64,000 nucleotides of DNA from Nanobdellota archaeon (GCA_038044205.1 JBBTAN010000017.1:104452-168451), one strand, 5' to 3'. Numbered from the stretch's first letter, positions 14,285 to 59,254 are shown. Translations and numbers: made by a program. The notes: generated by a model not told the origin, from the sequence alone.

Positions 14285-14326
14285 CTGATTGATAACCAGT
14301 CACTTACAATAAAAAAGGAGAACAAA

Positions 14327-14876: not shown

Positions 14877-14889
14877 ATATAATAAACAA

Positions 14890-14963
14890 GCCCCTGTCGT
14901 CTAATTGGCTTGGATATTAGGTTTTCAGCCTAAAGATTGCGAGTTCAAATCTCGCCAGGGGTA
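14890..14963 (+). tRNA. tRNA-Glu (anticodon TTC)
   Basis: hand fold: GCCCCTG/CAGGGGT acceptor, TTAGG-TTTTCAG-CCTAA, GCGAG-TTCAAAT-CTCGC. Confidence 0.65.
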
Positions 14964-32045: not shown

Positions 32046-32071
32046 AAATATATTTATTATTTATTTATAAT

Positions 32072-32100
32072 AAGGAGACAGAAGTGTCTCCTTATTTTTT
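32072..32100 (+). terminator. rho-independent terminator
   Basis: AAGGAGACA/TGTCTCCTT hairpin plus T7. Confidence 0.65.
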
Positions 32101-32384: not shown

Positions 32385-33227
32385 ATGATTATTTGTGGAG
32401 ATAGTTTGACTGTTTTAAAAACTCTAAATACAGAGTTTGTAAATTGTTGTATTACTTCACCACCCTATTACAACCAAAGAGATTACGGTATAGATGGACA
32501 GATAGGTCTAGAACCTGATCCTTATTTATATATTGATAAGTTAGTAGGAGTATTTTCTGAAGTCAAAAGAATATTAAAAGATGATGGGACTCTGTGGTTG
32601 AATATATCAGATACTTATGCGGCAAATAGATCATATCAGGTTCCAAGTACCAAAGGAGGGGTCAAACATGGGCCAGGACAGGCTGCAGGTGGAAGAGGTA
32701 GTAAAGTACCATGCGGGCTAAAGCCAAAAGATTTAATAGGAATTCCTTGGCGCTTGGCTTTTGCTTTACAGGCTGATGGTTGGTATTTGAGGCAGGATTG
32801 TATTTGGGAAAAACCTAATGTTTTTCCTCAATCTGTAAAAGATAGATGCACAACATCTCATGAATATATGTTTTTATTATCTAAATCAGAAAAATATTAT
32901 TTTGATTGTAAAGCTATAGAGGAAAATGGAGCAAAAGGTAAAAGAAATAAGAGATCAGTTTGGTCCATTCCTACGCAACCATCTAAAATAAATCATTGCG
33001 CTATGTTCCCATCTAAATTAATAGAACCTTGTGTTTTGGCTAGTTGTCCTATTGATGGAGTTGTCCTTGATCCTTTTGCTGGATCGGGAACAACTGGTCA
33101 AGTAGCTATAGAAAACAAAAGAAAATATATTTTAATTGAGTTGAATCCTGAATATATTAAATATATAGAAGAGAGATTAAATATAAGTAAACCTGAAGTA
33201 AAAGATAACATAGAGGGGATTAGATAA
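32385..33227 (+). CDS. DNA methyltransferase (beta-class N4-cytosine/N6-adenine, SPPY type)
   Basis: CCITSPPYY motif IV near N-terminus, DPFAGSGTTG motif I near C-terminus. Confidence 0.8.
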   Translation: MIICGDSLTVLKTLNTEFVNCCITSPPYYNQRDYGIDGQIGLEPDPYLYIDKLVGVFSEVKRILKDDGTLWLNISDTYAANRSYQVPSTKGGVKHGPGQAAGGRGSKVPCGLKPKDLIGIPWRLAFALQADGWYLRQDCIWEKPNVFPQSVKDRCTTSHEYMFLLSKSEKYYFDCKAIEENGAKGKRNKRSVWSIPTQPSKINHCAMFPSKLIEPCVLASCPIDGVVLDPFAGSGTTGQVAIENKRKYILIELNPEYIKYIEERLNISKPEVKDNIEGIR

Positions 33228-33242
33228 TTATAGGAGATTTTT

Positions 33243-35099
33243 ATGGCGGATTTTTATAGTGATGAATTGTGCAAATCAAGAGTTAATTGTTTTAGCTGCA
33301 GGACTAATAAAAACTGGCGCAGATGGCTTTTGAGTCAAAAGAAAGTAGATGTTGAGGATTTCGAATGTATTCCATTAAAACTTGCTATGGATGCTAAATT
33401 AGAAGAAATGCCAGAACCAACGCAAAAGAAAGAAAATAATATAAAAAGGATGGAGGACGTAAGGAAGAATCTTCCTGCTTTGATTCAGGTATTAAAGCAG
33501 ACTCTTCCTTCGGAGTATGAGGGAGTAGTAGAGGATATAGAATTTATTACAAATCCTCATGGTGGTTCTGCTAAAGTTTGCGAATATATGAAAGTAACAA
33601 ATAAAAAAGTAAAAAGGGATGATTGCAAGTGTAAAACATTTCTAGTTGATTGCAAGCATCCAGATCCTGAAGTTCATAAAATAGTAGATGGAGTAGCTAT
33701 TACTATGACATGTAGAATTGATAAATGTAAATGGTTTACTCCTAAACCAGATGATGTAGTTGATGTAAAAGATTTCATTAAACCTGTCAATGTTGTTGCT
33801 CCAACTGTTTTCTCTCCTCCTCCTTTTGATACTTCTAAACCTGATATTGTTCCTACTGTTATTACTTCTTCTGTTCCTCCTGTTGTTATGTTGACAGAAA
33901 AGGAAGTAAAGAGTCCTAAAAATACAGATAAAATGGATTATGCTCGTATAAGGCATGGCAGAGAAAAAGATGTTGGTTTTTTAACTGGTAAATATATACA
34001 AACACCTCCTCTTTTATTTTCTCGTGATTGTCATAATATCTGGTTAGGAGATATGTATAGGGGAGGTTCAGCATTTTTAATTTTAAGTGGTCCTTCTTTT
34101 GCAAATGTAAATAAAGAATTATTACTTGGAAATAGTAAAAGACCAAGGATGTTGACGTTAGGAGTCAATAATAGTGTTAAAACATATCGTCCTGATATGT
34201 GGACTTGTGTGGATAGGCCAGATAGTTTTATTAAATCAATATGGGTAGATCCAGGAATAATGAAATTTACTCCTATATGTCATTCTGAAAAATTTATTTT
34301 TGATAGTGATAAATGGGAAATGACAAATATTAAAGTTGGAGATTGTCCTAATGTTTGGTATTATAGAAGAAATGAATATTTTAGACCAGAGAATTTTTTG
34401 TATGAAGATACAATAAATTGGGGTAATCATAGTAAGGCAGAAGAAGATGGTGGTGGTAGAAGTATAATGCTTGCTTCTATTCGTATATTATTTTATTTAG
34501 GAATAAGAAATATATTTTTATTAGGTTGTGATTTCAAAATGGATAGTAATTATACGTATCATTTTGAACAGAATCGTGCTGGAGGTAGTGTAAATGGAAA
34601 TACAAGCACTTATGAAAAGTTAAAAGATAGATTTAATAAAATATTGCCTATATTTAAACAGAATGGTTTAAATATATATAATTGTAATCCAGATTCAGGA
34701 TTGAAAGTATTTCCTTTTATTTCTGTAGAAGAAGCAGTTAAAATAGCGACAGTAGATTTCCCTGAAGATTTATCTAAAGAGAGAACGGAAGGTCTTTATG
34801 ATCGCGAGGCAAAAGAAAAAGAGAAAAAGAAAAAAGAAAGTGTAAGTCCTGTTGATGGAAAGGTTTACACTGAAGAAGAAAAAACAAATATAAAAAATAA
34901 ATTAGATGAAGCAAGAGGTAAGTTGAGGGTTAGTAAAGAATCAGTTGCTTCATATAAATTGACAGAGATGAAAGAAATTGATAAAGTAGAATGGAATAAA
35001 AAATTAGAGGAATTAGAAGCTGATGTATTGAAATATCGTGCTGAATTTAGGACCATAGAGGCCGAGAAAAATAAGATCTGGGGCATCGTTAAAAAATAG
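33243..35099 (+). CDS. large protein with DUF115/MptE-like (Maf-type glycosyltransferase-like) core and C-terminal coiled coil
   Basis: GGSAFLILSGPSF...PDMWTCVD...GGRSIMLASIRILFYLGIRNIFLLGCDF patterns; call from memory of family motifs. Confidence 0.45.
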   Translation: MADFYSDELCKSRVNCFSCRTNKNWRRWLLSQKKVDVEDFECIPLKLAMDAKLEEMPEPTQKKENNIKRMEDVRKNLPALIQVLKQTLPSEYEGVVEDIEFITNPHGGSAKVCEYMKVTNKKVKRDDCKCKTFLVDCKHPDPEVHKIVDGVAITMTCRIDKCKWFTPKPDDVVDVKDFIKPVNVVAPTVFSPPPFDTSKPDIVPTVITSSVPPVVMLTEKEVKSPKNTDKMDYARIRHGREKDVGFLTGKYIQTPPLLFSRDCHNIWLGDMYRGGSAFLILSGPSFANVNKELLLGNSKRPRMLTLGVNNSVKTYRPDMWTCVDRPDSFIKSIWVDPGIMKFTPICHSEKFIFDSDKWEMTNIKVGDCPNVWYYRRNEYFRPENFLYEDTINWGNHSKAEEDGGGRSIMLASIRILFYLGIRNIFLLGCDFKMDSNYTYHFEQNRAGGSVNGNTSTYEKLKDRFNKILPIFKQNGLNIYNCNPDSGLKVFPFISVEEAVKIATVDFPEDLSKERTEGLYDREAKEKEKKKKESVSPVDGKVYTEEEKTNIKNKLDEARGKLRVSKESVASYKLTEMKEIDKVEWNKKLEELEADVLKYRAEFRTIEAEKNKIWGIVKK

Positions 35100-35108
35100 G
35101 AGTTGTTT

Positions 35109-35816
35109 TTGTTCTCAATTAATTTAGAATTAAATGTAACATTAAAATGTAATTGCAAGTGTTTATATTGTAATAGATGTTGTAATTTATTTGATTACGA
35201 AGATTCAGATATGATTCCTGAACAAATAATTAAATTAGGTGAGCAATTAAAATCAAAAGAGATTTATATAAAGAAAATAAAAATAGTTGGCGGTGAGCCT
35301 TTATTAAATCCTAATATTATAGATATAGTTGAAGAATTAGATAAATTAAAAACAGAAGGTTTAATTGGATATATAAAGATAAATACAAATACTACAATTC
35401 CTGTTCCTGATGGACTTAGGAAATATAATATGAGATGGTTAGGTAGTAGTAAAAAGAAAAAGAAACATATTCCATTTCCTTATTCTCTTTTAGATTGTGG
35501 ATTAGAGCCAGAAAAATGTAATATTCCAAATGGTTGTGGTTTATCTTTGGATAAATGGGGATTTCTTCCTTGTTCTCCAGCCATACCATTAGTTCGCATA
35601 TTAAACAAACCAGAATTATATTCTAAAACAGTTCCATCTAATATTTATTTTATTAAAGAGTTATGTTCTCATTGTTCTCATGCTATGCCAGCAAATTGGA
35701 AAAAAGATAATATGTCTTTTGGATTGAAAGATAATAATATTTGTCCAACGAAGACTATGGTAGAAGGCATAAAAAAATATAATTCTGAATTTGATAAAAA
35801 ATTGGAGATATATTAA
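35109..35816 (+). CDS. small radical SAM protein (paralogous in architecture to 21426..22046)
   Basis: CNCKCLYC = CX3CX2C, VGGEPLL; TTG start 6 nt after AGGAG. Confidence 0.7.
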   Translation: MFSINLELNVTLKCNCKCLYCNRCCNLFDYEDSDMIPEQIIKLGEQLKSKEIYIKKIKIVGGEPLLNPNIIDIVEELDKLKTEGLIGYIKINTNTTIPVPDGLRKYNMRWLGSSKKKKKHIPFPYSLLDCGLEPEKCNIPNGCGLSLDKWGFLPCSPAIPLVRILNKPELYSKTVPSNIYFIKELCSHCSHAMPANWKKDNMSFGLKDNNICPTKTMVEGIKKYNSEFDKKLEIY

Positions 35817-36563
35817 ATGTCAGATATTGAAATTCATACTATGCTTTACGGATTTCAGAAGAGATTTTGGTGGCAATTATCAAGTTTAATTGAGCAGGAG
35901 AACGGTCCAAAGTTGTCTTATGTAATTAGTTTACATAATAAAGATCCTTGGTTTAGTTGGAATGAAAAAATAATAAATACATTTAGTAGATATATTTCTA
36001 TTAATTCTATTATTTGGGATGATGACATGTTTGGTATTAGGGGTCAGGTGAGAAATAAGAGTATGTTATCATGTAAATCTTCTTGGATAGTATTTAATGA
36101 TGCTGACATGATTTATCCTAAAGATTTTTTTAATAAATTTTGGGTAGGATTAGGTAGAATACCAGATGAGCATAGGGTAATAGGAACTGGAAGGAAGACA
36201 GTGTTGAAGGTAGAAGATGCCGATAAATTGATAGAATCAGAGAAATATGATTTGCCTATAAATAATTCTTTTAATAAATGTTCTAATCTTATTCTTAGAA
36301 ATATTACTGGCGCTTATGGAGTTGGATTTTTTCAATGCGTCAATGTAGAAAATTATAGAAAATATCAAGCAGAGAATGGTAGAGATGGGTCTTATGTTGG
36401 AGAATATAAAAGAGATTGGAGTATTTTGAGTGATAAGCCCCATACAAGAACAAATAGTGATAGGTGTTTTCGCATTAGGGCTGGAGGTGCAATTGCAATA
36501 CCTGATATTTTTGCTATTCATCTACAGCATTTTAGAGGACCAGCTAACGGGGTGCAACGATGA
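35817..36563 (+). CDS. putative GT-A fold glycosyltransferase
   Basis: IVFNDADMIYP (DxD); TAAATG coupling. Confidence 0.4.
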   Translation: MSDIEIHTMLYGFQKRFWWQLSSLIEQENGPKLSYVISLHNKDPWFSWNEKIINTFSRYISINSIIWDDDMFGIRGQVRNKSMLSCKSSWIVFNDADMIYPKDFFNKFWVGLGRIPDEHRVIGTGRKTVLKVEDADKLIESEKYDLPINNSFNKCSNLILRNITGAYGVGFFQCVNVENYRKYQAENGRDGSYVGEYKRDWSILSDKPHTRTNSDRCFRIRAGGAIAIPDIFAIHLQHFRGPANGVQR

Positions 36564-37180
36564 AATTATTAAAAGGGTGCCACAATTTATTAAATGAAGT
36601 AGTAAAAAATGATTTCTATAAAGTCAGAGTTTTCCGTCGTAGGGTTCCAGAGACTTTTGTTGATATTGGCGCTAATGTTGGCATGTTTTCCATAATGGTT
36701 AGATTTTTATTTCCTAATTCAAGAATTATTGCTATTGAACCTGACCCTAATAATTATGCTGCATTGGTGGATAATTGTTCTGGTCTTGAGATTGAGACGG
36801 TAAATGTAGCTATTGCCGATGGAAAGCCAGTGCAGATGATAGGAAGTCGTTCTACGTGTAAAAGAGTTGAATCGTCAGATATTGGGATTCCAAGTATAAT
36901 ATTTTCAGATTTAGTTAAGATGGTTAAATCTCCATTAAGTAAAACATATTTAAAATTTGATTGTGAAGGTGGAGAAAAATATTTTTTATCAGATCCAGTT
37001 AATGTATCTAAATTATGGGAATTTCAAGCTGTTGGTGCTGAATTGCATCCAGCATGGCTAACTCAAATACAATGGGATAGTTGGTCGGCTCTTTTGAAAC
37101 AGGAAGCTAGTAAATTTGGGTCAATTGATATAAAACTCGTTAAGAAAAATGCTGTTCTAATATATTTTCGGAGAAAATAA
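36560..37180 (+). CDS. FkbM-family methyltransferase
   Basis: FVDIGANVGMFS ... IIAIEPDPNNY; ATGA overlap. Confidence 0.6.
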   Translation: MKLLKGCHNLLNEVVKNDFYKVRVFRRRVPETFVDIGANVGMFSIMVRFLFPNSRIIAIEPDPNNYAALVDNCSGLEIETVNVAIADGKPVQMIGSRSTCKRVESSDIGIPSIIFSDLVKMVKSPLSKTYLKFDCEGGEKYFLSDPVNVSKLWEFQAVGAELHPAWLTQIQWDSWSALLKQEASKFGSIDIKLVKKNAVLIYFRRK

Positions 37181-37668
37181 TGAGTTGTTCAAAACATTTA
37201 AATAAATTTCCAAATGATATATTTATTGAAACTGGATCTTTAGTTGGAAAAGGTATAAAAAATGCTTTAAAGTATGGATTTAAAGAAATTCATTCTATAG
37301 AAATTTTAAAAACTAATTATGATATATGTGTTAAATTATTTAAAGATGATAAGAGAGTGAATTTATATTTAGGAGATAGTGCGGAAACTCTTCCTTATGT
37401 ATTAAAAAATATAAAAAATAAAGTAACTTTTTTACTTGATGCTCATGGTCCATGTTTTAAATGTCCTATATTAAAAGAATTAAAAATTATATTAGATCAT
37501 TCTAATTTAATAGGGGTGAAACATACAATAATAATAGATGATGCTAAATATTTTAATGGTAAGCGAGAAGATTTTGGATTTTTAAATATTGCCGATGTAA
37601 AAGAAATAGTTAATAAATATCCTTTATATATTTTTAATAATAATAAAAAATATATAACAATTCTATAA
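37180..37668 (+). CDS. putative class I SAM-dependent methyltransferase-like protein
   Basis: IETGS.VGKG...SIE...LGDS pattern; TAATG overlap. Confidence 0.35.
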   Translation: MSCSKHLNKFPNDIFIETGSLVGKGIKNALKYGFKEIHSIEILKTNYDICVKLFKDDKRVNLYLGDSAETLPYVLKNIKNKVTFLLDAHGPCFKCPILKELKIILDHSNLIGVKHTIIIDDAKYFNGKREDFGFLNIADVKEIVNKYPLYIFNNNKKYITIL

Positions 37669-37685
37669 TATATTGGAGTGATGAA

Positions 37686-39275
37686 ATGAGATCAAGAGGA
37701 GTATTATATTACAACATTGGTAGGAAATGCCTATCTCGTCTTGGAGTTTCAATTTTCAGTTTAAGAAAACATTACAGTGGACCTGTGACAGTTATATGGA
37801 GCGGGAAAGAAAGTGGAAATGAATGTAAAAAATTATTGAATTCTCCATTAGATATTAATTTAGTTGAAATGAAATCAGATGTATCTGAAGGTTTCCATAA
37901 AGCTTTTATGGATAAGACGTTAGTTCATACTGTCACTCCATACGATACAAGTATTTTTCTTGATACTGATACTTTAGTTGTTGGTAAAATTGATGAGTTG
38001 TTTGATTACGCTGAAGAATATGAATTTATATGTACTCAATTCTCGGATTGGGTAACTACTGGAAGAGCTATGGCCGGAAGAATACAGCAATTCAATGGAT
38101 TAGATCCACTTGCAGTAAAAGAAGCATTAAAACCAGGTCCAGGTCTAAATGTTGGTGTTTATTCCTTTATTAAAGAATCTAAGTTTATGGCTGATTGGAA
38201 TAAATTAACAATGCCAGGAAGAAATTTCAATCTTCCTGAAGAATCAGCATGTATGGTTTATAGGCATAGATATCCCCATAAAGTTGTTGACCAAAAATTC
38301 AATTGTTCTTGTAGATATAGTAATACTCATAATCCAGATATAAGAATTATACATTATCATGGAGATAAACATTGCCGAAATACAAATAATAAATTTATTT
38401 ATTCTGCTGATTTATGGATGAATCATTATGAAGAGATAATGAGCAATAAAATACCAGGTTTAGTTCAATTGGTTCAGGATAATAGTAATTATGATAAATT
38501 TTTAAAAAGATTAAAGAAACCAATTATAGAAGTTCCTAAAATAGAAATTCCTAAAGTTCCTGATTTTAAAACACCTGATATTACATTGGTTACTGCCGTT
38601 ACAGAAGAATATCTCCCTATATTAAAACTAACATATAAAACATGGGATCTGAAAAGTTGTTTAAAGAATGCTCCTATTCTTATTTTTTCTCATGGATTAT
38701 CCAGTAAACATGATTTCGATTTTCTAAAACCAAGAAATTATAGAATAGTTGATTGGGATATGCCTAAATATGATAGCCAAAGAGAATTAATGTTATCTTC
38801 TTTTGTATTAGGATCTGCTAAATATGTAGAGACTCCTTATTGGATGAAATTAGATTCAGATAGTTTTTTCCATAATGATAATCCATTATTTGAAAAAGAA
38901 GATTTCGATTATGATTTAGTAGCTCCTTCGTGGGGTGTATCAAGAACTGAATTTATTATTGCAATGGATAAATGGGCTGAAGTTCATTGTTTTTCTGGAG
39001 AACCATTTTTCAAAGATGGGATTCCTGATGTTGTAAAATATAAACATAATAGATTTATTTCTTATTTATGTTTGCACAGGTCAGAATTTGTCCGTACAAG
39101 TGCTGCAATGTCCCCAGGACGGCTTCCGATACCTAGTCATGACTCATACCTATGGTATCTTTTATATCGCTTTGGCGGTAAGTATAAAACAAAAAGAAGT
39201 CATAAGTTTAGTGTTGTGCAGAAGAGAGGTTTAAAAAACGTAAGAGAAACGATGATAAAATTAAAATTATTATAA
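37686..39275 (+). CDS. two-domain nucleotide-sugar glycosyltransferase (GT8-like N-domain)
   Basis: IFLDTDTLVVGKIDELF (DxD) and second MKLDSDSFF. Confidence 0.5.
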   Translation: MRSRGVLYYNIGRKCLSRLGVSIFSLRKHYSGPVTVIWSGKESGNECKKLLNSPLDINLVEMKSDVSEGFHKAFMDKTLVHTVTPYDTSIFLDTDTLVVGKIDELFDYAEEYEFICTQFSDWVTTGRAMAGRIQQFNGLDPLAVKEALKPGPGLNVGVYSFIKESKFMADWNKLTMPGRNFNLPEESACMVYRHRYPHKVVDQKFNCSCRYSNTHNPDIRIIHYHGDKHCRNTNNKFIYSADLWMNHYEEIMSNKIPGLVQLVQDNSNYDKFLKRLKKPIIEVPKIEIPKVPDFKTPDITLVTAVTEEYLPILKLTYKTWDLKSCLKNAPILIFSHGLSSKHDFDFLKPRNYRIVDWDMPKYDSQRELMLSSFVLGSAKYVETPYWMKLDSDSFFHNDNPLFEKEDFDYDLVAPSWGVSRTEFIIAMDKWAEVHCFSGEPFFKDGIPDVVKYKHNRFISYLCLHRSEFVRTSAAMSPGRLPIPSHDSYLWYLLYRFGGKYKTKRSHKFSVVQKRGLKNVRETMIKLKLL

Positions 39276-39278
39276 AAA

Positions 39279-39307
39279 GAAAAGGCGCAAATAATTTGCG
39301 CCTTTTC
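39279..39307. terminator. bidirectional terminator between convergent genes
   Basis: 13-bp stem GAAAAGGCGCAAA/TTTGCGCCTTTTC. Confidence 0.65.
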
Positions 39308-39336
39308 TAGGAGGAGGGATCGGGCGAGGTGAAATA

Positions 39337-43667: not shown

Positions 43668-43668
43668 T

Positions 43669-44112: not shown

Positions 44113-44230
44113 AAAATAATCCTTTAATATCAACCATTTATATATTATTTACTTATTCTTTTTATTCCTTTAGAAGGATAAAAAACAGATAAGAAGAATA
44201 TGATAATAACATTCCGCATGGAGGTTTTCT

Positions 44231-50486: not shown

Positions 50487-53400
50487 TTGGCAACGGTTAA
50501 AATTGTAAATCCAGATGGTAGTGGAGATTATACTACATTAGCCCTCTGGGAAGACTGGGCTGATGGTCAGGGCACGACTGATCAATGGGCAGAATGTGAG
50601 ATAGACTCAGTTGACAATACAAGTCTTGGTCGCGTTGCTGTGGCTGGGTGGTCCGCCACATCAGTAGGGGCCTACCCGCGCATATATACTTCGCTCGCGC
50701 ATAGACACAACGGTCAGAGTGGCAGTGCTGGTGCGTGGATATTAGGATCCGCCAGCACGACATGTATAGCCATAACTGTAAATTATGTCAGGGTCGAGGG
50801 AATCAGATGCGTCATCACTGGCCTGTCCGGCAAGGGCGTCACCGTTGCCAATATGGGTTCATGCTTTATTGATAGCGTACTCGTTGACTACACAGGAACC
50901 ACTCCAACCTCAAGCACTTTTGCGGTATTTTGCGACTCTAACACCACGTCCAATTACACTGTGCAAAACTGTCTGTATTACGGAAGCGGGATATCTCAGG
51001 GGCAAGCGATCTTTATTCGCGCGCTGAGTGGGTCGAACGTCACCGCCAGCATCTATAACAACTCTGGAGTTGGTTGGGAATACGGGTTCTACTTTAACGA
51101 GGTAGCCGGTGGAACGCTGGCAGTCACGTCCACCAATAACATTGCGACGGCGGCTACCACACAGTGCTACATAACTGCTGGAGACCTCGTAATCACGCAG
51201 ACCTACTGTATCTCCAGCGACACGTCAGCCGACAATTGGTTTGGAGCAGGTAATCAAATTAGTGTAGCTGGAAATACTATATTTACAAATGCTACTACTA
51301 ATTTTAATTTAGTATCTGGCTGTGTCGCTGTTGACGCTGGTGCAACGATTGCTTCTTTTGATTGGGATGCCGTACATTTAGACGCAGATAATTGGCGTCC
51401 ACAAGGCGCTTCGTGGGATATAGGTGCGCTTGAGTTACAGGATAATAATTCAAGTAGTTCTAGTTCATCATCTTCATCAGAATCCCCGTCTTCTCAAAGT
51501 TCTCAATCTTCTCAAAGTTCTAGTTCATCATCTTCATCGTTTAAAGATCAAAGTTCGTCAAGTAGTTCTTCGAGTGAATCTGATGAACCATCATCAAGCA
51601 GTTCGTCTTCTGAAAGTGAATCAAGTATAAGTTCTCAATCATCGTCTTCTACATCATTAGGTGAATCTAGTTCATCCTCATTTAGTTCTAGTAGTTCTTT
51701 AGGATTTAGTTCATCAAGTTCCAGTTCGTCAGAATTAATAAATTCGAGTAGTTCATTGTCTAGTTCCAGTTCTTTATCTAGTTCTTTATCTGAAAGTTCG
51801 AGTAGTTCATTATCTAGTTCAAGTTTATCATCTGAATCTTCATCTAGTTCAACATCTTTAGGAGAATCTTCATCTAGTTCCTCTTCGTCAGAGTTAGTTA
51901 AATCTTCGAGTTCAGAGTCTAGCTCTTCTAGTTTATCTAGCTCATCATCTGAATCTAGTTCATCATCAGAATCAAGTAGTAGTGAAAGTTCAAATTCTTC
52001 TTCATCTGAATTGATAAATTCGAGCAGTTCACTTTCAAGTTCAAGTTCTTTGTCTAGTTCATCATCTGAAAGTTCAAGTAGTTCTTTGTCAAGTTCAAGT
52101 TCTTCATCAGAATTAATAAATTCATCTAGTTCTTTATCTAGTTTATCAAGTTTAAGCTCTAGTTCGTCATCCGAATCAAGTTCTTCTAGCGAATCTAGTT
52201 CAAGTTCATTAGGATTTAGTTCTTCTTCATCGGAATCATCAAGTAGTTCTTCATCTATCTCTTCCTTGTCTAGTGAATCTAGTTCTAGTTCAACTTCGTT
52301 AGGTGAGTCTTCATCTAGCTCAAGTTCAGAATCTTCTCCTAGTTCATCATCAACCTCGCTTGGGGAGTCTTCATCAAGTTCGTCCAGTTCTACATCATTA
52401 GGTGAGTCATCATCTAGTTCAACCTCTCTTGGTGAATCTTCATCTAGTTTTTCATCATTATCATCATCTAGTTCTTTATCATCTGAAATAGCAAAATCTT
52501 CAAGTTCGGAATCAAGTTCAAGTTCATCATTATCAAGTGAATTAATAAAATCAAGTAGTTCTTTGTCAAGTTTAAGTTCTTTATCAAGTTCATCTTCAGA
52601 AAGTTCTTTAAGTTCGGAATCGAGTTCAAGTTCATCATTATCAAGTGAATTAATAAATTCAAGTAGTTCATTATCTAGTTCATCAAGTGAATCTAGTTCT
52701 AGCTCAACATCGTTAGGTGAGTCAAGTTCATCTTCTACATCATTAGGGGAATCGAGTTCTAGTTCTTCTTCATCAGAATTGATAAACTCTAGTAGTTCTT
52801 TATCAAGTAGTAGCTCATCAAGTGAATCATCGTCCAGTTCAACTTCATTAGGAGAGTCTAGTTCATCTTCTTCCAGTGAATCTTCATCTAGTTCTTCTTC
52901 ATTGGGGTCTAGTTCTAGTTCAGGTTCTAGTTTATCATCTGAAAGTTCAAGTAGTTCTTTGTCAAGTTCAAGTTCATCATCTGAATTAGTAAATTCTTCT
53001 AGTTCTTTATCTAGTTCTTCTAGTGAGTCTTCATCTAGTTCTACTTCGTTAGGGGAGACTTCATCTAGTTCCAGTTCAGAATCTTCTTCTAGTTCATCCT
53101 CAACCTCGCTTGGTGAATCATCGTCAAGTTCGTCTTCATCAACATCATTAGGAGAATCGTCATCAAGCTCATCTAGTGAATCTTCTTCTAGTTCAAATTC
53201 ATCGGAATTAATAAATTCATCAAGTTCAGAATCTAGTTCTAGTTCTTCATTAAGTTCTTTATCCAGTTCAAGTTCTAGTTCTAAATTAATAAATTCGAGT
53301 AGTTCTTTTTCAAGTGAATCTAGTTCTTCTTCATTAGGATTTAGTTCAAGTTCGTCATCTAGTTCGTTGTCAGAATCTAGTTTATCCAGTGAATCATCTT

Positions 53401-54326
53401 CGAGTTCTACATCGTTAGGAGAATCTTCATCAAGTTCTTCTTCTTTATCTTCTGAAAGTTCAAGTAGTTCTTTATCCAGTTCTAGTTCATCTGAATTAGT
53501 AAATTCAAGTAGTTCTTTATCTAGTTCTAGTTCTTTATCTAGTTTATCATCCGAAAGTTCTTTATCTAGTTCGAGTTCTTCCAGTGAGTCAAGTTCTAGT
53601 TCAACATCTTTAGGAGAGTCTTCATCTAGTTCAGAATCTTCTTCCAGTTCATCCTCAACCTCGCTTGGAGAGTCTTCGTCAAGTTCCAGTTCTTCTTCGT
53701 CAACATCATTAGGTGAATCTTCATCCAGTTCATTATCTTCTGAATTAATAAATTCATCTAGCTCGGAATCAAGTGATAGTTCAGAATCCAGTTCATCATC
53801 TGAAAGTTCAAGTAGTTCGCTGTCCAGTTCTTCTTCATCATCAGAATTAATAAATTCATCTAGTTCAGAATCAAGTTCTTCTAGTTCAACATCGTTAGGT
53901 GAATCAAGTTCAAGCTCATCTAGCGAGTCATCTTCTAGTTCTACTTCGTTAGGTGAATCTTCATCTAGTTCTACATCATTAGAAGAATCAAGTTCTAGTT
54001 CTGAATCTTCATCTAGCTCAACCTCATTAGGGGAATCTAGTTCTAGTTCTTCGTCATCTGAATTGATTAATTCAAGTAGTTCTTTATCTAGTTCTAGTTC
54101 TTCCTCAAGTTCAATATCTGGAAGTTCTGGAAGTCCCTCCTCAAGTTCTAGTTCCTCGTCAGAATTAATAAATTCATCAAGTTCTTTATCTAGTTTATCA
54201 AGTTTAAGTTCTTTATCATCTGAATCTAGTTCATCATCAAGCTCTAGTTCACTATCCGGATATGAATCGAGTTCTTCTAGTTCATCTTCATTTTTTGAAT
54301 ATATATTTATGGTAGTTAATTGTTAA
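50487..54326 (+). CDS. giant beta-helix (pectate-lyase-fold-like) head plus ~960-aa serine-rich repeat protein (TTG start)
   Basis: N-terminal ~315 aa paralogous to 55376 gene, ends ...DADNWRPQGASWDIGALE; then STSLGESSSSS / SELINSSSSLSS repeats. Confidence 0.75.
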   Translation: MATVKIVNPDGSGDYTTLALWEDWADGQGTTDQWAECEIDSVDNTSLGRVAVAGWSATSVGAYPRIYTSLAHRHNGQSGSAGAWILGSASTTCIAITVNYVRVEGIRCVITGLSGKGVTVANMGSCFIDSVLVDYTGTTPTSSTFAVFCDSNTTSNYTVQNCLYYGSGISQGQAIFIRALSGSNVTASIYNNSGVGWEYGFYFNEVAGGTLAVTSTNNIATAATTQCYITAGDLVITQTYCISSDTSADNWFGAGNQISVAGNTIFTNATTNFNLVSGCVAVDAGATIASFDWDAVHLDADNWRPQGASWDIGALELQDNNSSSSSSSSSSESPSSQSSQSSQSSSSSSSSFKDQSSSSSSSSESDEPSSSSSSSESESSISSQSSSSTSLGESSSSSFSSSSSLGFSSSSSSSSELINSSSSLSSSSSLSSSLSESSSSSLSSSSLSSESSSSSTSLGESSSSSSSSELVKSSSSESSSSSLSSSSSESSSSSESSSSESSNSSSSELINSSSSLSSSSSLSSSSSESSSSSLSSSSSSSELINSSSSLSSLSSLSSSSSSESSSSSESSSSSLGFSSSSSESSSSSSSISSLSSESSSSSTSLGESSSSSSSESSPSSSSTSLGESSSSSSSSTSLGESSSSSTSLGESSSSFSSLSSSSSLSSEIAKSSSSESSSSSSLSSELIKSSSSLSSLSSLSSSSSESSLSSESSSSSSLSSELINSSSSLSSSSSESSSSSTSLGESSSSSTSLGESSSSSSSSELINSSSSLSSSSSSSESSSSSTSLGESSSSSSSESSSSSSSLGSSSSSGSSLSSESSSSSLSSSSSSSELVNSSSSLSSSSSESSSSSTSLGETSSSSSSESSSSSSSTSLGESSSSSSSSTSLGESSSSSSSESSSSSNSSELINSSSSESSSSSSLSSLSSSSSSSKLINSSSSFSSESSSSSLGFSSSSSSSSLSESSLSSESSSSSTSLGESSSSSSSLSSESSSSSLSSSSSSELVNSSSSLSSSSSLSSLSSESSLSSSSSSSESSSSSTSLGESSSSSESSSSSSSTSLGESSSSSSSSSSTSLGESSSSSLSSELINSSSSESSDSSESSSSSESSSSSLSSSSSSSELINSSSSESSSSSSTSLGESSSSSSSESSSSSTSLGESSSSSTSLEESSSSSESSSSSTSLGESSSSSSSSELINSSSSLSSSSSSSSSISGSSGSPSSSSSSSSELINSSSSLSSLSSLSSLSSESSSSSSSSSLSGYESSSSSSSSFFEYIFMVVNC
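51438..54290 (+). repeat. coding serine-rich low-complexity repeat region
   Basis: degenerate TC(A/T)/AGT-rich repeats; antisense frames give E/L/D-rich artefact ORFs. Confidence 0.85.
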
Positions 54327-55375: not shown

Positions 55376-58063
55376 TTGGCAACGACAAAAACTATAAAAT
55401 CAGCAGATGGTGATTATACTACGTTAGCCCTTTGGGAGGATTGGGCTGATGGGCAGGCAACTGCCGACCAGTGGGCCGAATGTTATTCAGGCTTCAATAT
55501 GGGAGTGGTAGTTTTTGCGGGGTGGACTACGACTCCTACTTCAGGCGCATATCCAAAGATATACACTCCCATTGCTCAACGCCACAATGGGAAAGATGAC
55601 TCTTCAGGTGACGGAGCATATCTAACTGTTGGTGCCACTGACATTGGCATTGACATTCAGATTCCCTATGTTCGGGTCGAAGGCATCCGCGTCAACATGC
55701 GGAATAGCGCCGCTTGTGTGGGCATCTACCCTCGTTCAGGCGGCAATAACGTCATCCTCGATAGTAACTTGATTTCTTGCAAGGTCGCCAATTCTACTGC
55801 GGCGATATTTCCAACCCCTAATGCTACCTGTGACACGATTATACGAAACAACCTCATCTATGGTGGAGGGACTTGCGATTACGGCATCTACGTTTATGTA
55901 ACTTCAAATATCACCGCTACCGTGTATCTGCAGAACAACACTATTCAAAGTTGTGAAGCTAGAGGAATTGTTGTAACTACAAACAACAACGTTGGGGAGG
56001 TTATCAACTGCACTTCCACTAACAATATCTCTACCTCTGCTGCGCTTCAGGATTACTATGCGGAAGGGGTCTCCGCAACCCTTACCAATACTTATTGTCT
56101 TTCGAGCGACGCTACCGCTGGTACTGACGGGGTTGATGGAAACCTTACAGGCAGGGCCGCGTCCGATCAGTTCGTCAATACCACAAATGATTTTACGTTG
56201 AAGAGCACGGCTGACGCTCTTAATGCTGGTACTACCATAGCCGCTTTTGACTGGGACGCTCTACATCTTGACGCGGACAACTGGCGTCCTCAGGGTGCGG
56301 CTTGGGATATGGGAGCGATTGAGTCTGCGGTTGTAGAATCCAGTTCATCCTCAAGTTCGTCTTTGTCATCTTCTTCCAGTTCGCCCAGTTCGTCTTCGTC
56401 ATCTTCTTCTTTTAAAGATCAAAGTTCATCCAGTTCCAGTTCCTCTGAATTAATAAATTCAAGTAGTTCAGAATCAAGTGAAAGTTCAGAATCTTCGTCA
56501 AGTTCAACATCGTTAGGTGAGTCATCATCCAGTTCTTCATCTCTGTCGTCATCTAGTTCTAGTTCATCTGAAATAGTGAAATCTTCAAGTTCTGAATCTA
56601 GTTCTAGTTCTTCATTGTCATCTGAATTAATAAATTCATCTTCTTCTTTATCTAGTTCTAGTTCTAGTTCTAGTTCTAGTTCTAGTTCTAGTTCGGAGTT
56701 GATAAATTCAAGTAGTTCACTATCAAGTTCTTCTAGTGAGTCGTCATCAAGTTCTTCTTCTTTAGGTGAGTCATCTTCTAGCTCTACGTCATTGGGAGAG
56801 TCTAGTTCGTCTTCATTGTCTAGTTCATCTAGCAATAATTGTTTTACTATTGAAACTATGAAGGCATTATGGCATTTTGATACTAGCGATACTGGTGTGA
56901 CTCCAGATATAAGTGGAAACGGTTATGATCTTACTTTAAATGGAGATGCGTCTATAATAAGTGGTGGAAAATTTAATAGTTGTCTTATTTTAGATGGAGA
57001 TGGTGATTATGCTGTTTCAGATGTAGATATTACTGATTTTGATTTTAGTTCAGGGAGTTTTACTGCCGCTTGTTGGGTGAAAACTACAGCTACTCCAGCT
57101 ACTACAATGATTATTATGTCTTATCACAATGGGGGGGCATATTCTCTTTCTAATATAGCATGGTGGGTTGGTATTCCATCAGGGCAAAAGCTCCAACTTG
57201 TTGCTACGTTTAATGGTTCCACTTGGGGTGTTCTCTTATCCACGGCTGGCAGTACTGGTATTTGTGATGGGAATTGGCATCATGTCGCTTTGGTTAGAAA
57301 TGGAAATGCTTGGAATTTATACCTTGACGGGACATCAGTATTAAGTACTACGGCAAGTGGGTCATTGTATGAACCTGCTAATAGAATGATGAATTTTGGA
57401 AGGGGAATGAACGATAGTGGGCAATGGAGTTATTATAATGGAAGGATTGATGAAGCTATAATAGCAAAATATGCTGTTTGGACAGGTAATTTTTCAAGGC
57501 CGGAATCTCCTTATTGCGATCCTGTTACATTATCTTCTAGTTCAAGTAGTCAATCATCTAGTTCTTCATCTTCATCTATTTCTAGTGAATTAATAAATTC
57601 ATCTTCTTCTTTATCTAGTTCTAGTTCTAGTGAGTCATCATCCAGTTCAACCTCTCTTGGTGAATCTTCATCTGGTTCTAGTTCATCATCATCATCTGAA
57701 TTAATAAATTCAAGTAGTTCTTTGTCAAGTTTAAGTTCTTTATCTAGTTTATCATCAGAAAGTTCTTTAAGTTCTGAATCTAGTTCTAGTTCTTCATTAT
57801 CATCCGAATTGATTAATTCAAGTAGCTCTTTATCTAGTTCCTCTAGTTCATCATCTGAATCAGATGAACCTTCTTCAAGTTCATTTTCTAGTTCTTCTTC
57901 ATTGTCATCTTTATCTTCTCCTAGTTCTTTATCTTCTAGTTCGTTATCGTCTAATTCTTCTTCCAGTTCTCTGTCGTCAAATTCTTCTTCTAGTTCATCC
58001 TCATCGGAATTAGCGCATATTCCAAGAAATCCATTTTTCTCAAGTCCTTTAATGATTGTATAA
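55376..58063 (+). CDS. beta-helix head + Ser-rich repeats + LamG/concanavalin-like domain + Ser-rich repeats (TTG start)
   Basis: paralog of 50487 head; LamG-like segment ~56828-57535 (NWHHVALVRNGNAWNLYLDG...GRIDEAII). Confidence 0.75.
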   Translation: MATTKTIKSADGDYTTLALWEDWADGQATADQWAECYSGFNMGVVVFAGWTTTPTSGAYPKIYTPIAQRHNGKDDSSGDGAYLTVGATDIGIDIQIPYVRVEGIRVNMRNSAACVGIYPRSGGNNVILDSNLISCKVANSTAAIFPTPNATCDTIIRNNLIYGGGTCDYGIYVYVTSNITATVYLQNNTIQSCEARGIVVTTNNNVGEVINCTSTNNISTSAALQDYYAEGVSATLTNTYCLSSDATAGTDGVDGNLTGRAASDQFVNTTNDFTLKSTADALNAGTTIAAFDWDALHLDADNWRPQGAAWDMGAIESAVVESSSSSSSSLSSSSSSPSSSSSSSSFKDQSSSSSSSSELINSSSSESSESSESSSSSTSLGESSSSSSSLSSSSSSSSEIVKSSSSESSSSSSLSSELINSSSSLSSSSSSSSSSSSSSSELINSSSSLSSSSSESSSSSSSLGESSSSSTSLGESSSSSLSSSSSNNCFTIETMKALWHFDTSDTGVTPDISGNGYDLTLNGDASIISGGKFNSCLILDGDGDYAVSDVDITDFDFSSGSFTAACWVKTTATPATTMIIMSYHNGGAYSLSNIAWWVGIPSGQKLQLVATFNGSTWGVLLSTAGSTGICDGNWHHVALVRNGNAWNLYLDGTSVLSTTASGSLYEPANRMMNFGRGMNDSGQWSYYNGRIDEAIIAKYAVWTGNFSRPESPYCDPVTLSSSSSSQSSSSSSSSISSELINSSSSLSSSSSSESSSSSTSLGESSSGSSSSSSSELINSSSSLSSLSSLSSLSSESSLSSESSSSSSLSSELINSSSSLSSSSSSSSESDEPSSSSFSSSSSLSSLSSPSSLSSSSLSSNSSSSSLSSNSSSSSSSSELAHIPRNPFFSSPLMIV

Positions 58064-58117: not shown

Positions 58118-59254
58118 ATGGAATTCCCTAAAAAATTTAGATTTCATTTATTATCTCTTGCTCATATTCCAACCACAAAAGAATATTCTGCTTGTGCTTA
58201 TTCTCAAAAAATAATAAAATTATCAACTATGTTAATGAAATTAGGTCATGATGTTTATTTTTATGGTAATGAAGATTCAGAATTACCATGCACTGAATTA
58301 GTTCCTGTTCTAACTAAAAAAGAAAGAGATGATTGTTATGGTCCTTATGATTGGAAAAAAGAATTTTTTAAGTTTAGTAATACAGATTCAGTTTGGACAA
58401 CATTTAATAATAGATCAATAGTTGAAATAAATAAAAGAAAAGAAAAATTTGATTTTCTTTTATGTACAATGGGGCATTGGCATAGGCCAGTAGCAGATGC
58501 TGTTAAAGATATTACTGTAGTAGAACCTGGTATAGGATATAGTGGAGTTTTTAGTAGTTTTAGAGTATTTGAGAGCTATGCTTGGATGCACTATATTTAT
58601 GGTCAATTAAAACAAGAAACAGGTAATTTTTATGATTGTGTAATTCCTAATTTTTATGATCCTATGGATTTTCCTTATAGTGAGAAAAAAGAAGATTATT
58701 TTGTTTATATGGGTAGGTTAATATATAATAAAGGAGTAGATATTGCAGTTCAGACAACTAAAAAGATAGGGGCTAAACTTATAGTTGCTGGTCAGGGATC
58801 TTTAACTGATGGTGGATTGAATATAAAAGATAGTCATGTTGAGCATGTTGGTTGTTTAGGGATGAAAGAAAAAGGTGAGTTATTAAGTAAAGCTAAAGGG
58901 CTGTTTGTTCCAACTTATTATATAGAACCTTTTGGTGGAGTATCAATTGAAAGTTTTTTTGCTGGAACTCCTGTAATATCAACAGATTGGGGGTGTTTTT
59001 CAGAAAATAATATTCATGGTAAAACTGGATATAGATGTAGAACATTAGGTGAATTTATTTGGGCAGCAAAAAATATAGAAAATATAAAATCATACGATTG
59101 TAGACACTGGGCTGTAAATAATTTTTCTATGGATAGAATAGCGCAACAATATCAACATTATTTCGAAAATATAAGAGATCTTGATATAAATTTAGGTGCT
59201 GGATTTTACTCTGATAGAGTAGGAAATATGAATCATCTAACCAAATATTTTTAA
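58118..59254 (+). CDS. GT4-family (group 1) glycosyltransferase
   Basis: EPFGGVSIESFFAGTPVISTDWG motif; 378 aa. Confidence 0.7.
   Translation: MEFPKKFRFHLLSLAHIPTTKEYSACAYSQKIIKLSTMLMKLGHDVYFYGNEDSELPCTELVPVLTKKERDDCYGPYDWKKEFFKFSNTDSVWTTFNNRSIVEINKRKEKFDFLLCTMGHWHRPVADAVKDITVVEPGIGYSGVFSSFRVFESYAWMHYIYGQLKQETGNFYDCVIPNFYDPMDFPYSEKKEDYFVYMGRLIYNKGVDIAVQTTKKIGAKLIVAGQGSLTDGGLNIKDSHVEHVGCLGMKEKGELLSKAKGLFVPTYYIEPFGGVSIESFFAGTPVISTDWGCFSENNIHGKTGYRCRTLGEFIWAAKNIENIKSYDCRHWAVNNFSMDRIAQQYQHYFENIRDLDINLGAGFYSDRVGNMNHLTKYF

What the first reader, a model, noticed from the sequence alone, without database searches (positions are those of the whole stretch)
33243..39275. Seven-gene translationally coupled glycosylation/methylation operon
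The genes are packed with 0-4 nt overlaps (TAAATG, ATGA, TAATG). In order they encode a 618-aa protein with a DUF115/Maf-like core (the family that O-glycosylates Ser/Thr of flagellins), a small radical SAM enzyme and a DxD GT-A protein. These are followed by an FkbM methyltransferase, a second methyltransferase-like protein and a two-domain GT8-like transferase. The content predicts synthesis and transfer of a methylated, possibly unusual sugar onto a protein or cell-surface acceptor. The serine-rich proteins 11 kb downstream are obvious candidate substrates.
Basis: partly seen in the sequence, partly recalled or inferred. Interest (0 to 1): 0.7.

Follow-up and report, generated by a model that had tools for sequence, protein, structure and literature searches.

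The report
Phage operon that glycosylates serine-rich fibres
A ~500-kb groundwater phage carries a tightly packed operon with four sugar-transferase domains, a radical SAM enzyme and two methyltransferases, and relatives of its lead enzyme sit next to giant serine-rich proteins in many other phages and bacteria, so it most likely coats the phage's own serine-rich fibres with a methylated glycan, a system that appears to be undescribed.

Summary
The operon is real, but it holds six genes within the given coordinates, not seven. A seventh, a DNA methyltransferase, lies upstream in the same terminator-bracketed unit (32385-39275).

- g1: MptE-like/DUF115 core.
- g2: small radical SAM enzyme.
- g3: GT2-type DxD GT-A.
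- g4: FkbM methyltransferase.
- g5: class-I methyltransferase-like.
- g6: GT8 plus a second GT-A domain, closest in structure to LARGE1, chondroitin polymerase and heparosan synthase.

Other phages fuse these parts: GT8+g1 in one ORF, and g6C+radical SAM in the next, followed by g3 and FkbM homologues. So the genes form one functional module.

The key result concerns serine-rich ORFs. They occur in 55 of 84 viral loci anchored on g1 homologues (15 of 29 lineages, mostly within 1.3 kb). Control phage loci show 2 of 94, and both are marginal or spurious. PVC-superphylum MAG loci show 22 of 41.

The window's only two serine-rich ORFs (50487-54326 and 55376-58063) are therefore credible substrates. 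The sugar identity, the g1 chemistry and the acceptor are inferred, not shown. I found no paper describing this pairing.

The parts
32069..32096 (+). Terminator hairpin plus T-run closing the preceding gene. It marks the upstream boundary of the transcription unit.
   Evidence: Read directly. RNA fold gives -16.3 kcal/mol, z = -6.5.
32385..33227 (+). N6/N4 DNA methyltransferase (SPPY motif). It is the first gene of the unit and ends 15 nt before g1. It is probably a passenger, not part of the glycosylation module.
   Evidence: PF01555 E=1e-49 and phrog_67 E=4e-67. A homologue lies near a g1 homologue in only 1 locus, L043.
33243..35099 (+). g1, 618 aa. Residues 1-229 are a low-confidence Cys/Pro-rich N-terminus. 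Residues ~250-530 are a conserved MptE-like/DUF115 Rossmann core with GPS 283-285 and LLGCD 426-430. Residues 544-612 form a coiled coil. Proposed enzyme acting directly on the serine-rich acceptor.
   Evidence: More than 360 homologues at 45-63% identity over the core. Invariant residues. AF2 model. Foldseek matches. Pfam scan of family members. Serine-rich neighbours.
35109..35816 (+). g2, a small radical SAM enzyme of 235 aa. The start is TTG 35109; TTG 35103 is also in frame. It has CX3CX2C, GGEP and further conserved Cys residues (possibly an auxiliary cluster).
   Evidence: PF04055 at 45.6 bits against a 29.5 cut-off. Alignment A5. Fused to g6C-like domains in L015, L026-L028, L031, L034, L222 and P0239.
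35817..36563 (+). g3, a GT2-type GT-A glycosyltransferase of 248 aa with DxD at D95/D97.
   Evidence: Alignment A4. 9 of 12 homologues hit PF00535. The profile hits TarS 5tze at 1e-7, and also K4CP, TarP and SunS.
36560..37180 (+). g4, an FkbM-family SAM methyltransferase of 206 aa.
   Evidence: TIGR01444 at 56.6 bits (cut-off 37.7) and PF05050 at 26.4 bits (cut-off 22.7). Homologues follow the g3-like gene in L026, L028, L031 and L222.
37180..37668 (+). g5, a class-I SAM methyltransferase-like protein of 162 aa with motif I IETGSLVGKG.
   Evidence: 3302 representative homologues. Family profile A3 hits the O-methyltransferase YrrM 5zw3 at E=3e-5. Pfam hits are weak and scattered.
37686..39275 (+). 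g6, a 529-aa two-domain glycosyltransferase. The N domain (aa ~1-280) is GT8-like, with DxD at D93/D95 and H223/H225. The C domain (aa ~298-529) is a second GT-A with DxD at D390/D392.
   Evidence: Alignment A2. Glycogenin hit at 2e-5. AF2 pLDDT 90.9. Foldseek best matches are LARGE1 at 1e-16, then K4CP, PmHS2, UGGT and GlyE. The two domains are separate genes in L001 and are fused to g1 or to radical SAM elsewhere.
39278..39308 (.). 14-bp GC-rich hairpin with T-runs on both sides. It acts as a bidirectional terminator ending the operon.
   Evidence: -20.3 kcal/mol, z = -5.9.
50487..54326 (+). Serine-rich protein 1, 1279 aa with 708 Ser. It has a globular ~330-aa N-terminal domain followed by ~950 aa of Ser-rich repeats, and no signal peptide. 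Candidate acceptor.
   Evidence: Ser codons are mixed (TCT, TCA, AGT).
55376..58063 (+). Serine-rich protein 2, 895 aa with 284 Ser. It shares the N-terminal domain of protein 1 and carries a LamG/concanavalin-like domain flanked by Ser-rich tracts. Candidate acceptor.
   Evidence: PF13385 E=6e-18. A 2413-aa serine-rich neighbour of a g1 homologue in L199 also carries PF13385.
58118..59254 (+). GT4 glycosyltransferase starting 55 nt after serine-rich protein 2. It is a possible extra participant, but its link to serine-rich proteins is not conserved.
   Evidence: PF00534 E=7e-15 and phrog_3408 E=2e-107. None of 14 loci carrying homologues has a serine-rich ORF.

Best explanation
The operon is a cytoplasmic protein O-glycosylation and methylation module whose acceptors are the phage's own serine-rich fibre-like proteins.

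Proposed steps, all inferred unless marked otherwise:
1. g1, the MptE-like/DUF115 enzyme and the one constant partner of serine-rich proteins across genomes, binds a nucleotide-activated donor and modifies Ser hydroxyls of the poly-Ser tracts. By analogy with Maf and Cst enzymes the donor is a CMP-activated ulosonic or nonulosonic acid, probably supplied by the host.
2. g3 (GT2) and the two GT-A domains of g6 (GT8 plus a second DxD domain) extend the glycan. The g6 architecture resembles LARGE1, chondroitin polymerase and heparosan synthase, so extension may produce an alternating disaccharide polymer.
3. The radical SAM enzyme g2 is physically fused to the g6C domain in other phages. It probably remodels the sugar that this domain handles.
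4. FkbM (g4) and the second methyltransferase (g5) O-methylate and possibly cap the chain.

The expected product is a mucin- or proteoglycan-like coat on virion fibres.

Shown: the gene order and coupling, the domain and fold assignments, the fusions that tie the genes together, and the genomic association of g1 homologues with serine-rich ORFs.

Inferred: the acceptor, the donor sugars, the order of steps, any polymerisation, and a virion location.
For: 1. Module integrity. In L025-L028, L031 and L222 one ORF fuses the GT8 domain to the g1 core. The next ORF fuses g6C to the radical SAM domain, and g3-like and FkbM-like genes follow. g1 sits directly beside g6 or split g6 genes in more than 20 loci.

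2. Acceptor.
- Serine-rich ORFs (at least 40% Ser in a 60-aa window) occur in 55 of 84 g1-anchored viral loci (66 of 1464 ORFs).
- Loci anchored on the DNA methyltransferase show 2 of 80, and GT4-anchored loci show 0 of 14. Fisher p = 7e-22. The two control hits are marginal or spurious.
- After collapsing g1 at 70% identity, 15 of 29 lineages have one, 12 of them within 1.3 kb. The serine-rich proteins fall in different sequence clusters.
- In about 35 small phages the g1-like gene lies in the tail module, immediately upstream of a Ser-rich/Hint protein and flanked by a methyltransferase and a GT32-like gene.
- In PVC MAGs, 22 of 41 loci pair a g1 homologue with serine-rich ORFs of up to 2429 aa, often with no g6 homologue detected in the ±10-kb locus.

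3. Consistency within the window. It holds exactly two serine-rich ORFs. Neither has a signal peptide. They lie among collagen-like fibre genes.

4. No convincing transmembrane segment occurs in g1-g6. This fits cytoplasmic protein glycosylation.

5. Maf enzymes of the same Pfam family O-glycosylate Ser/Thr with nonulosonic acids or Kdo (PMC11339370; bioRxiv 10.1101/2020.06.03.131540). Some g1 homologues hit CST-I. One is fused to Capsule_synth (KpsC/S type), and a paralogue hits WaaZ_KDO_III.
Against: - There is no biochemical evidence for any step.
- In this window the serine-rich genes are 11 kb from the operon, not adjacent.
- About half of the g1 lineages show no serine-rich ORF within 10 kb.
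- g1's only significant PDB match is a pyrophosphokinase (MptE), not a glycosyltransferase. No Maf or Cst-II structure appeared among the hits.
- The window protein scores below Pfam's PF01973 threshold (16.4 against 34.6 bits).
- In several huge-phage loci the neighbours are DNA-metabolism genes (SbcCD, ligase, NucS).
- No donor-sugar pathway was found in the window.
- Virion incorporation of the serine-rich proteins is assumed.
Confidence: 0.6

Rival explanations
1. The operon remodels a host cell-envelope polysaccharide (LPS O-antigen, capsule or a teichoic-acid-like polymer) during infection, for example to block superinfection. The serine-rich proteins would be unrelated.
For: GT2, GT8 and FkbM enzymes are typical of O-antigen and capsule loci. 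There is a weak RfbT hit for g4 and a Capsule_synth fusion in L186. A jumbo-phage survey interprets phage glycosyltransferase clusters this way (PMC7824862).
Against: g1-g6 have no transmembrane segments, and the unit has no flippase, polyprenol-phosphate transferase or exporter. This reading does not explain the strong, repeated adjacency of g1 homologues to serine-rich ORFs, or the placement inside a tail module.
Confidence: 0.12
2. g1 is not a glycosyltransferase but an ATP-dependent (pyro)phosphotransferase like MptE. It would phosphorylate the poly-Ser tracts, and the GT-A enzymes would then build a phosphodiester-linked glycan or act elsewhere.
For: The only significant PDB match of the g1 model is the MptE pyrophosphokinase 8sd5. 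Cytidylyltransferase-like genes lie near g1 in L003 and at window 62742-63239. The closest structural analogue of g6, LARGE1, works on a phosphodiester-linked glycan (my own knowledge of LARGE1 biology, not tested here).
Against: TM-scores to MptE are only 0.46-0.49. Family members also hit CST-I sialyltransferase, and PHROG 4603 is annotated as a sialyltransferase. The characterised PF01973 members that act on proteins are glycosyltransferases (PMC11339370).
Confidence: 0.1
3. The operon hypermodifies phage DNA or nucleotides with a methylated sugar, acting together with the co-transcribed DNA methyltransferase.
For: A DNA methyltransferase is the first gene of the same unit. Some homologous loci lie among replication and repair genes. 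Phage glycosyltransferases are known to hypermodify DNA (Pyle et al. 2024, seen only as a reference in PMC12619734).
Against: A methyltransferase homologue lies near g1 in only 1 locus, and none of 80 methyltransferase-anchored loci has any g1-g6 homologue. The unit holds no hydroxymethylase or nucleotide-kinase genes. This reading does not explain the serine-rich association.
Confidence: 0.05
4. The adjacent GT4 (58118-59254), not the operon, glycosylates the serine-rich proteins, as GtfA does in Gram-positive SRRP systems. The operon would then make something else.
For: The GT4 gene starts 55 nt after the second serine-rich gene. GT4 initiates SRRP glycosylation in streptococci (my own knowledge).
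Against: None of 14 phage loci carrying GT4 homologues contains a serine-rich ORF, whereas g1 homologues show the association repeatedly. The two enzymes could also act together.
Confidence: 0.08

Closest known systems
Maf (motility-associated factor) flagellin glycosyltransferases, Pfam PF01973 MptE-like/DUF115
   Same: The Pfam superfamily signal and the Rossmann-type core with a GPS nucleotide-binding motif are shared. Both are cytoplasmic enzymes. Both are genetically linked to a Ser/Thr-bearing structural protein that self-assembles outside the cell.
   Different: g1 scores below the family threshold, and no Maf structure was matched. The partner is a poly-Ser low-complexity tract rather than a folded flagellin. 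The system is phage-borne and embedded with three further GT domains, a radical SAM enzyme and methyltransferases. The donor is unknown.
Serine-rich repeat glycoprotein systems of Gram-positive bacteria (Fap1, GspB, PsrP with GtfA/B and GT8 enzymes such as GlyE)
   Same: Both have huge Ser-rich repeat proteins with a globular binding domain, modified in the cytoplasm by several glycosyltransferases that include GT8 domains. GlyE is among the fold matches of g6.
   Different: No GtfA/GtfB pair, accessory Sec system or LPXTG anchor was seen. The conserved partner here is an MptE-like enzyme. The carriers are phages and PVC bacteria.
Mycobacteriophage virion glycosylation (Freeman et al. 2023, seen only as cited in PMC12619734)
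   Same: Phage-encoded glycosyltransferases modify the phage's own structural proteins.
   Different: The enzyme families and acceptors differ: C-terminal tails of capsid and tail-tube proteins there, against kilodalton-scale poly-Ser fibre proteins here. I could not read the primary paper, so the details rest on the citing text.
Bifunctional two-GT-A glycan polymerases (LARGE1, E. coli K4 chondroitin polymerase, Pasteurella heparosan synthase 2)
   Same: g6 has two GT-A domains in one chain (GT8-like plus a second DxD domain). These enzymes are its best structural matches, with LARGE1 at E=1e-16.
   Different: Global TM-scores are only ~0.25-0.35 because the domain arrangement differs. The second domain has no sequence-detectable family. 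Polymerising activity is untested. The two domains are separate genes, or are fused to other partners, in relatives.

Membership tests
MptE-like / DUF115 (PF01973; includes Maf) | Pfam PF01973 match at or above the gathering score (34.6 bits) | tested here: not met
   The window g1 scores 16.4 bits, E=0.008. 30 of 36 family members match at E<=0.01, best 1e-6. Five PVC homologues score 20.8-23.8 bits.
MptE-like / DUF115 (PF01973; includes Maf) | MptE-type Rossmann fold | tested here: met
   The AF2 core has pLDDT >90. Foldseek gives 8sd5 MptE at probability 1.0, E=2e-4, TM 0.46-0.49. BFVD MptE-like phage proteins match at E=5e-10 to 1e-7.
MptE-like / DUF115 (PF01973; includes Maf) | Transfer of a CMP-activated nonulosonic or ulosonic acid to Ser/Thr of a protein (Maf activity) | not testable with these tools
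   Only indirect hints exist: CST-I hits in 2 members, PHROG 4603, and a Capsule_synth fusion.
Radical SAM superfamily | CX3CX2C cluster motif and PF04055 above threshold | tested here: met
   C-NCK-C-LY-C near the N-terminus is invariant in alignment A5. PF04055 scores 45.6 against 29.5 bits.
FkbM methyltransferase family | TIGR01444 / PF05050 above threshold | tested here: met
   56.6 against 37.7 bits, and 26.4 against 22.7 bits.
GT2 (GT-A fold, inverting) for g3 | PF00535 match and DxD motif | tested here: inconclusive
   The window protein has no Pfam hit. 9 of 12 aligned homologues hit PF00535, best 6e-9. The profile hits TarS at 1e-7. DxD is invariant.
GT8 (retaining GT-A) for the g6 N domain | PF01501 above threshold; DxD and HxxGxxKPW-type His motif | tested here: inconclusive
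   PF01501 scores 13.5 against 24.3 bits. The family profile hits glycogenin at 2e-5 over the DxD region. D93xD95 and H223/H225 are invariant. Fold matches include the UGGT catalytic domain at TM 0.64-0.66, GlyE and LARGE1.
Gram-positive SRRP / accessory-Sec glycosylation system | GtfA/GtfB initiating pair, SecA2/SecY2/Asp export genes and an LPXTG anchor | tested here: not met
   None appeared among the Pfam or PHROG hits of operon and neighbouring genes. Only a lone GT4 lies at 58118. The similarity is analogy only.
LARGE-type bifunctional glycan polymerase | Two active GT-A domains in one chain that alternately add two sugars | tested here: inconclusive
   Two GT-A domains, each with an invariant DxD, and top fold matches to LARGE1, K4CP and PmHS2. 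Alternating polymerisation cannot be tested here.

The most novel reading that the evidence does not exclude
A previously unrecognised system, shared by PVC-superphylum bacteria and their phages, makes proteoglycan- or mucin-like fibres. A distinct clade of MptE-like enzymes would directly derivatise kilodalton-scale poly-serine tracts, with an ulosonic acid or a phospho-linked primer. A LARGE-like two-domain polymerase would extend this into a repeating polymer. A radical SAM enzyme fused to the glycosyltransferase in some relatives would tailor it, and methyltransferases would cap it. Huge phages would thus display glycan-coated hairs on their virions.
Probability: 0.3. Interest if true: 0.85.

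Novelty: new variant of a known kind. Interest (0 to 1): 0.72.

Why it matters
Self-glycosylation of phage particles has been shown for few phages, and it affects immune recognition, stability and adhesion. If this reading is right, it has several consequences:
- A large, well-conserved and so far unannotated enzyme family gains a function and a recognisable acceptor (poly-Ser tracts). More than 360 homologues were found, nearly all annotated as hypothetical proteins.
- Virion glycosylation extends to huge environmental phages and to ordinary tailed phages of Verrucomicrobiota and Planctomycetota.
- It provides a simple genomic rule, g1 homologue plus serine-rich ORF, that can be tested by co-expression.
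- It offers new parts for glyco-engineering: a poly-Ser-directed transferase, a compact LARGE-like two-domain glycosyltransferase, and a glycosyltransferase-linked radical SAM enzyme.
- The restriction of cellular hits to PVC MAGs is a lead on the host of this 500-kb groundwater phage.

Tried and rejected
- Nucleotide and protein searches of GenBank phages with the operon, g1 and g6 found nothing.
- Single-sequence scans of IMG/VR also found nothing. Only the profile scan worked.
- A word-indexed search for g3 returned only the protein itself. Homologues had to be recovered from the neighbourhoods of g1 loci.
- Sequence-profile searches of g1 against the PDB gave only coiled-coil noise.
- hhalign of the g6 profile against the g3 profile was uninformative, with probability 1%.
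- PADLOC was not run. A defence-system reading was not pursued, because all proteins are biosynthetic-type enzymes.
- The idea that g2-g5 are a random insert between g1 and g6 was my first impression from L001 and L006. It was rejected once the fusions and conserved order in L026, L028, L031 and L222 were seen.
- The idea that the GT4 gene next to the serine-rich genes explains them was tested and found unsupported.
- Literature searches for DUF115 or MptE-like enzymes in phages, and for serine-rich phage proteins, found no description of this pairing. Two apparent DUF115 hits were prefix matches to DUF1156.
- The Freeman et al. 2023 paper could not be opened.

Full report
**Setting**

The window is low-GC (~30%) and phage-like. 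It carries Shine-Dalgarno-led genes, collagen-like tail-fibre genes, five tRNAs and a transposase. The g1 protein maps to a 499,814-bp ENA contig, Hain_H43_01um. The name reads as Hainich groundwater, 0.1-um fraction, so this appears to be a huge phage.

**Observation**

Between 33243 and 39275 there are six co-directional ORFs, not seven. The other two are gaps of 9 nt and 17 nt with AGGAG/GGAG in front. The public gene call starts g2 at TTG 35109.

A seventh gene, an N6/N4 DNA methyltransferase (PF01555, E=1e-49), ends 15 nt before g1. Strong terminator hairpins occur only at 32069-32096 and 39278-39308. The transcription unit is therefore 32385-39275 and holds seven genes. Six of them form the glycosylation set.

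**What the genes encode**

- **g1 (618 aa).** Residues 1-229 are a low-confidence Cys/Pro-rich N-terminus. Residues ~250-530 form a core modelled at pLDDT >90. The C-terminus is a coiled coil.
  - The core is unusually conserved: more than 360 homologues at 45-63% identity, nearly all annotated as hypothetical proteins. Invariant residues include GPS 283-285, NN 309-310 and the LLGCD motif at 426-430 (G428 and D430 invariant, L426 and L427 nearly so).
  - The window protein is sub-threshold for PF01973 (16.4 against 34.6 bits). However, 30 of 36 family members hit it and 2 hit CST-I. PHROG 4603, annotated as a sialyltransferase, matches at 1e-7.
  - The only significant PDB fold match is the MptE pyrophosphokinase 8sd5. 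BFVD matches are MptE-like phage proteins.
- **g2** is a minimal radical SAM enzyme with CX3CX2C, GGEP and extra conserved cysteines.
- **g3** had no homologue by word search. Eleven homologues recovered from related loci show it is a GT2-type GT-A with an invariant DxD.
- **g4** is an FkbM methyltransferase, above both curated thresholds.
- **g5** belongs to a family with 3302 representatives. Its profile hits the O-methyltransferase YrrM.
- **g6** was modelled at pLDDT 91 and has two GT-A domains, each with an invariant DxD. The first is GT8-like (glycogenin at 2e-5). The best structural matches are LARGE1 (1e-16), K4 chondroitin polymerase, heparosan synthase 2, the UGGT catalytic domain and the SRRP enzyme GlyE.
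- No convincing transmembrane segment occurs in any of the six proteins. The one hydropathy peak, in g1, lies in the buried Rossmann core.

**The genes form one module**

A profile scan of IMG/VR returned 80 loci with g1 homologues on contigs of 6-498 kb.

- In L006, g1 and a fused g6 overlap by 4 nt. In L001 the two g6 domains are separate genes in the opposite order.
- In L025-L028 and L031 a single ORF joins the GT8 domain to the g1 core. In L026-L028 and L031 the next ORF joins g6C to the radical SAM domain (in L025 it joins a g3-like domain to g6C instead). g3-like genes follow, and FkbM-like genes follow those in L026, L028 and L031.
- L222 repeats the whole arrangement.
- Other g6 homologues are fused to Methyltransf_24.

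These fusions show that g1, g2, g3, g4 and both halves of g6 work in one pathway. By contrast, the DNA methyltransferase accompanies g1 in only one locus.

**The acceptor**

In about 35 related small phages the g1-like gene lies in the tail module, after the capsid and tape-measure genes. It sits immediately upstream of a ~510-aa Ser/Gly-rich protein with a Hint domain. It is flanked by a class-I methyltransferase and a GT32/TcdB-like transferase.

In huge-phage loci, unrelated serine-rich proteins of 330-1677 aa end 18-700 nt from the module. Like the two in the window, they have a globular head followed by long SSSES-type tracts. One has a BclA-like head.

Counts, using ORFs with at least 40% Ser in a 60-aa window:

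| Set | Serine-rich ORFs | Loci with at least one |
|---|---|---|
| g1-anchored viral loci | 66 of 1464 | 55 of 84 |
| Methyltransferase-anchored control loci | 2 of 1643 | 2 of 80 |
| GT4-anchored loci | 0 of 227 | 0 of 14 |
| PVC MAG loci with g1 homologues | 24 of 515 | 22 of 41 |

The difference between g1-anchored and control loci gives Fisher p = 7e-22. The two control hits are threshold-level or shadow ORFs, and no control locus holds any g1-g6 homologue. After collapsing g1 at 70% identity, 15 of 29 lineages keep the association, 12 of them within 1.3 kb.

A scan of 185,579 species genomes found g1 homologues in 41 loci. Of these, 39 are MAGs of Verrucomicrobiota, Planctomycetota or Victivallaceae. 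The other two are an unclassified "uncultured bacterium" bin and a contig binned as Methanosarcinales. In 22 of the 41, serine-rich ORFs of up to 2429 aa lie in the same locus, often beside the g1 homologue and often with no g6 homologue detected in the locus. One of these serine-rich proteins carries the same LamG domain as the window's 895-aa protein.

The window itself has exactly two serine-rich ORFs out of 91, with 708 and 284 serines. Their Ser codons are mixed and they have no signal peptide.

**Interpretation**

g1 is the constant partner of poly-Ser proteins, so it most likely acts directly on them. The other glycosyltransferase domains, the radical SAM enzyme and the methyltransferases would elaborate the product.

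The nature of the g1 reaction is inferred, from three points:
- Characterised protein-modifying members of PF01973 are Maf glycosyltransferases (PMC11339370; bioRxiv 10.1101/2020.06.03.131540).
- Some members hit CST-I, and PHROG 4603 matches g1.
- There is a Capsule_synth (KpsC/S-type) fusion and a WaaZ_KDO_III-like paralogue.

A phosphotransferase activity like that of MptE cannot be excluded. The LARGE-like architecture of g6 suggests, but does not show, polymer synthesis.

**Rivals**

- **Host-envelope remodelling** is the published reading of jumbo-phage glycosyltransferase clusters (PMC7824862). Here it lacks any membrane or export component and does not explain the serine-rich linkage.
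- **DNA hypermodification** rests only on the adjacent methyltransferase and on some replication-gene neighbours.
- **The GT4 gene at 58118** is adjacent to the serine-rich genes, but that link is not conserved. It may still contribute in this phage.

**Novelty**

I found no paper that describes MptE-like enzymes paired with serine-rich proteins in phages or PVC bacteria. The logic resembles Gram-positive SRRP glycosylation, Maf-flagellin glycosylation and mycobacteriophage virion glycosylation. The enzyme set, the acceptor class and the carriers differ. I rate it a new variant of a known kind. All functional steps remain predictions.

Noticed in passing
L182-L222 (genome-contig hits of the g1 profile): 39 of the 41 cellular-genome hits are MAG contigs of the PVC superphylum (Verrucomicrobiota including Akkermansiaceae and Opitutia, Planctomycetota, Victivallaceae). 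The other two are an unclassified bin and a contig binned as Methanosarcinales. This hints that phages carrying the module, perhaps including this 30%-GC groundwater phage, infect PVC-related hosts. I did not check whether these contigs are prophages or native loci.
   Followed up: partly
window 39897-41057 (-), 49192-49854 (+), 54391-55341 (+): Three fibre-like proteins share a conserved N-terminal ~60-aa domain (MIV.N..N.A.DISDS.VGL.L.PIQPGE). Two of them (39897-41057 and 49192-49854) carry collagen-like G-X-Y repeats. They interleave with the serine-rich genes, which suggests a battery of interchangeable fibres on a common anchor.
   Followed up: partly
window 58118-63239: A GT4 glycosyltransferase (58118-59254), a response-regulator receiver domain protein (59800-60327, - strand), a GHMP kinase (60376-61509) and a cytidylyltransferase-like protein (62742-63239) lie together. 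This may be a sugar-activation set. The cytidylyltransferase-like protein resembles one two genes upstream of the g1 homologue in L003.
   Followed up: partly
window 41902-44998: A lysine-2,3-aminomutase-like radical SAM enzyme (41902-43065; LAM_C E=9e-16), a secreted trypsin-like protease (43062-43667, - strand) and an Amidoligase_2 protein (44231-44998) lie close together. This may be a separate amino-acid or peptide-modification set.
   Followed up: no
window 21426-22046: A second minimal radical SAM protein (206 aa) is a distant paralogue of g2. It aligns with the radical SAM half of the g6C-radical SAM fusions.
   Followed up: partly
window 30252-31808: A 518-aa protein is built almost entirely of repeated CxxC...CxxC zinc-ribbon-like units, with a coiled-coil tail. 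It lies one gene upstream of the unit. Function unknown.
   Followed up: no
window 5406-14963; 25685-26959 (-); 22151-24424 (-): There is a cluster of five tRNA genes (Leu-taa, Lys-ttt x2, Arg-tct, Glu-ttc), all reading A/U-ending codons. Nearby are an IS-type transposase (phrog_506) and a 757-aa ankyrin-repeat protein.
   Followed up: no
L019 66-1667: A 533-aa protein that reads like a major capsid protein (no Pfam hit) ends in a Ser-rich C-terminal tail. It lies 8 kb from the g1 homologue and among three other serine-rich ORFs. This is reminiscent of the glycosylated capsid C-termini reported for mycobacteriophages.
   Followed up: no
whole window: GC skew is positive in nearly every 2-kb bin (cumulative skew rises from 0 to 6.7). 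This matches the predominance of + strand genes.
   Followed up: no
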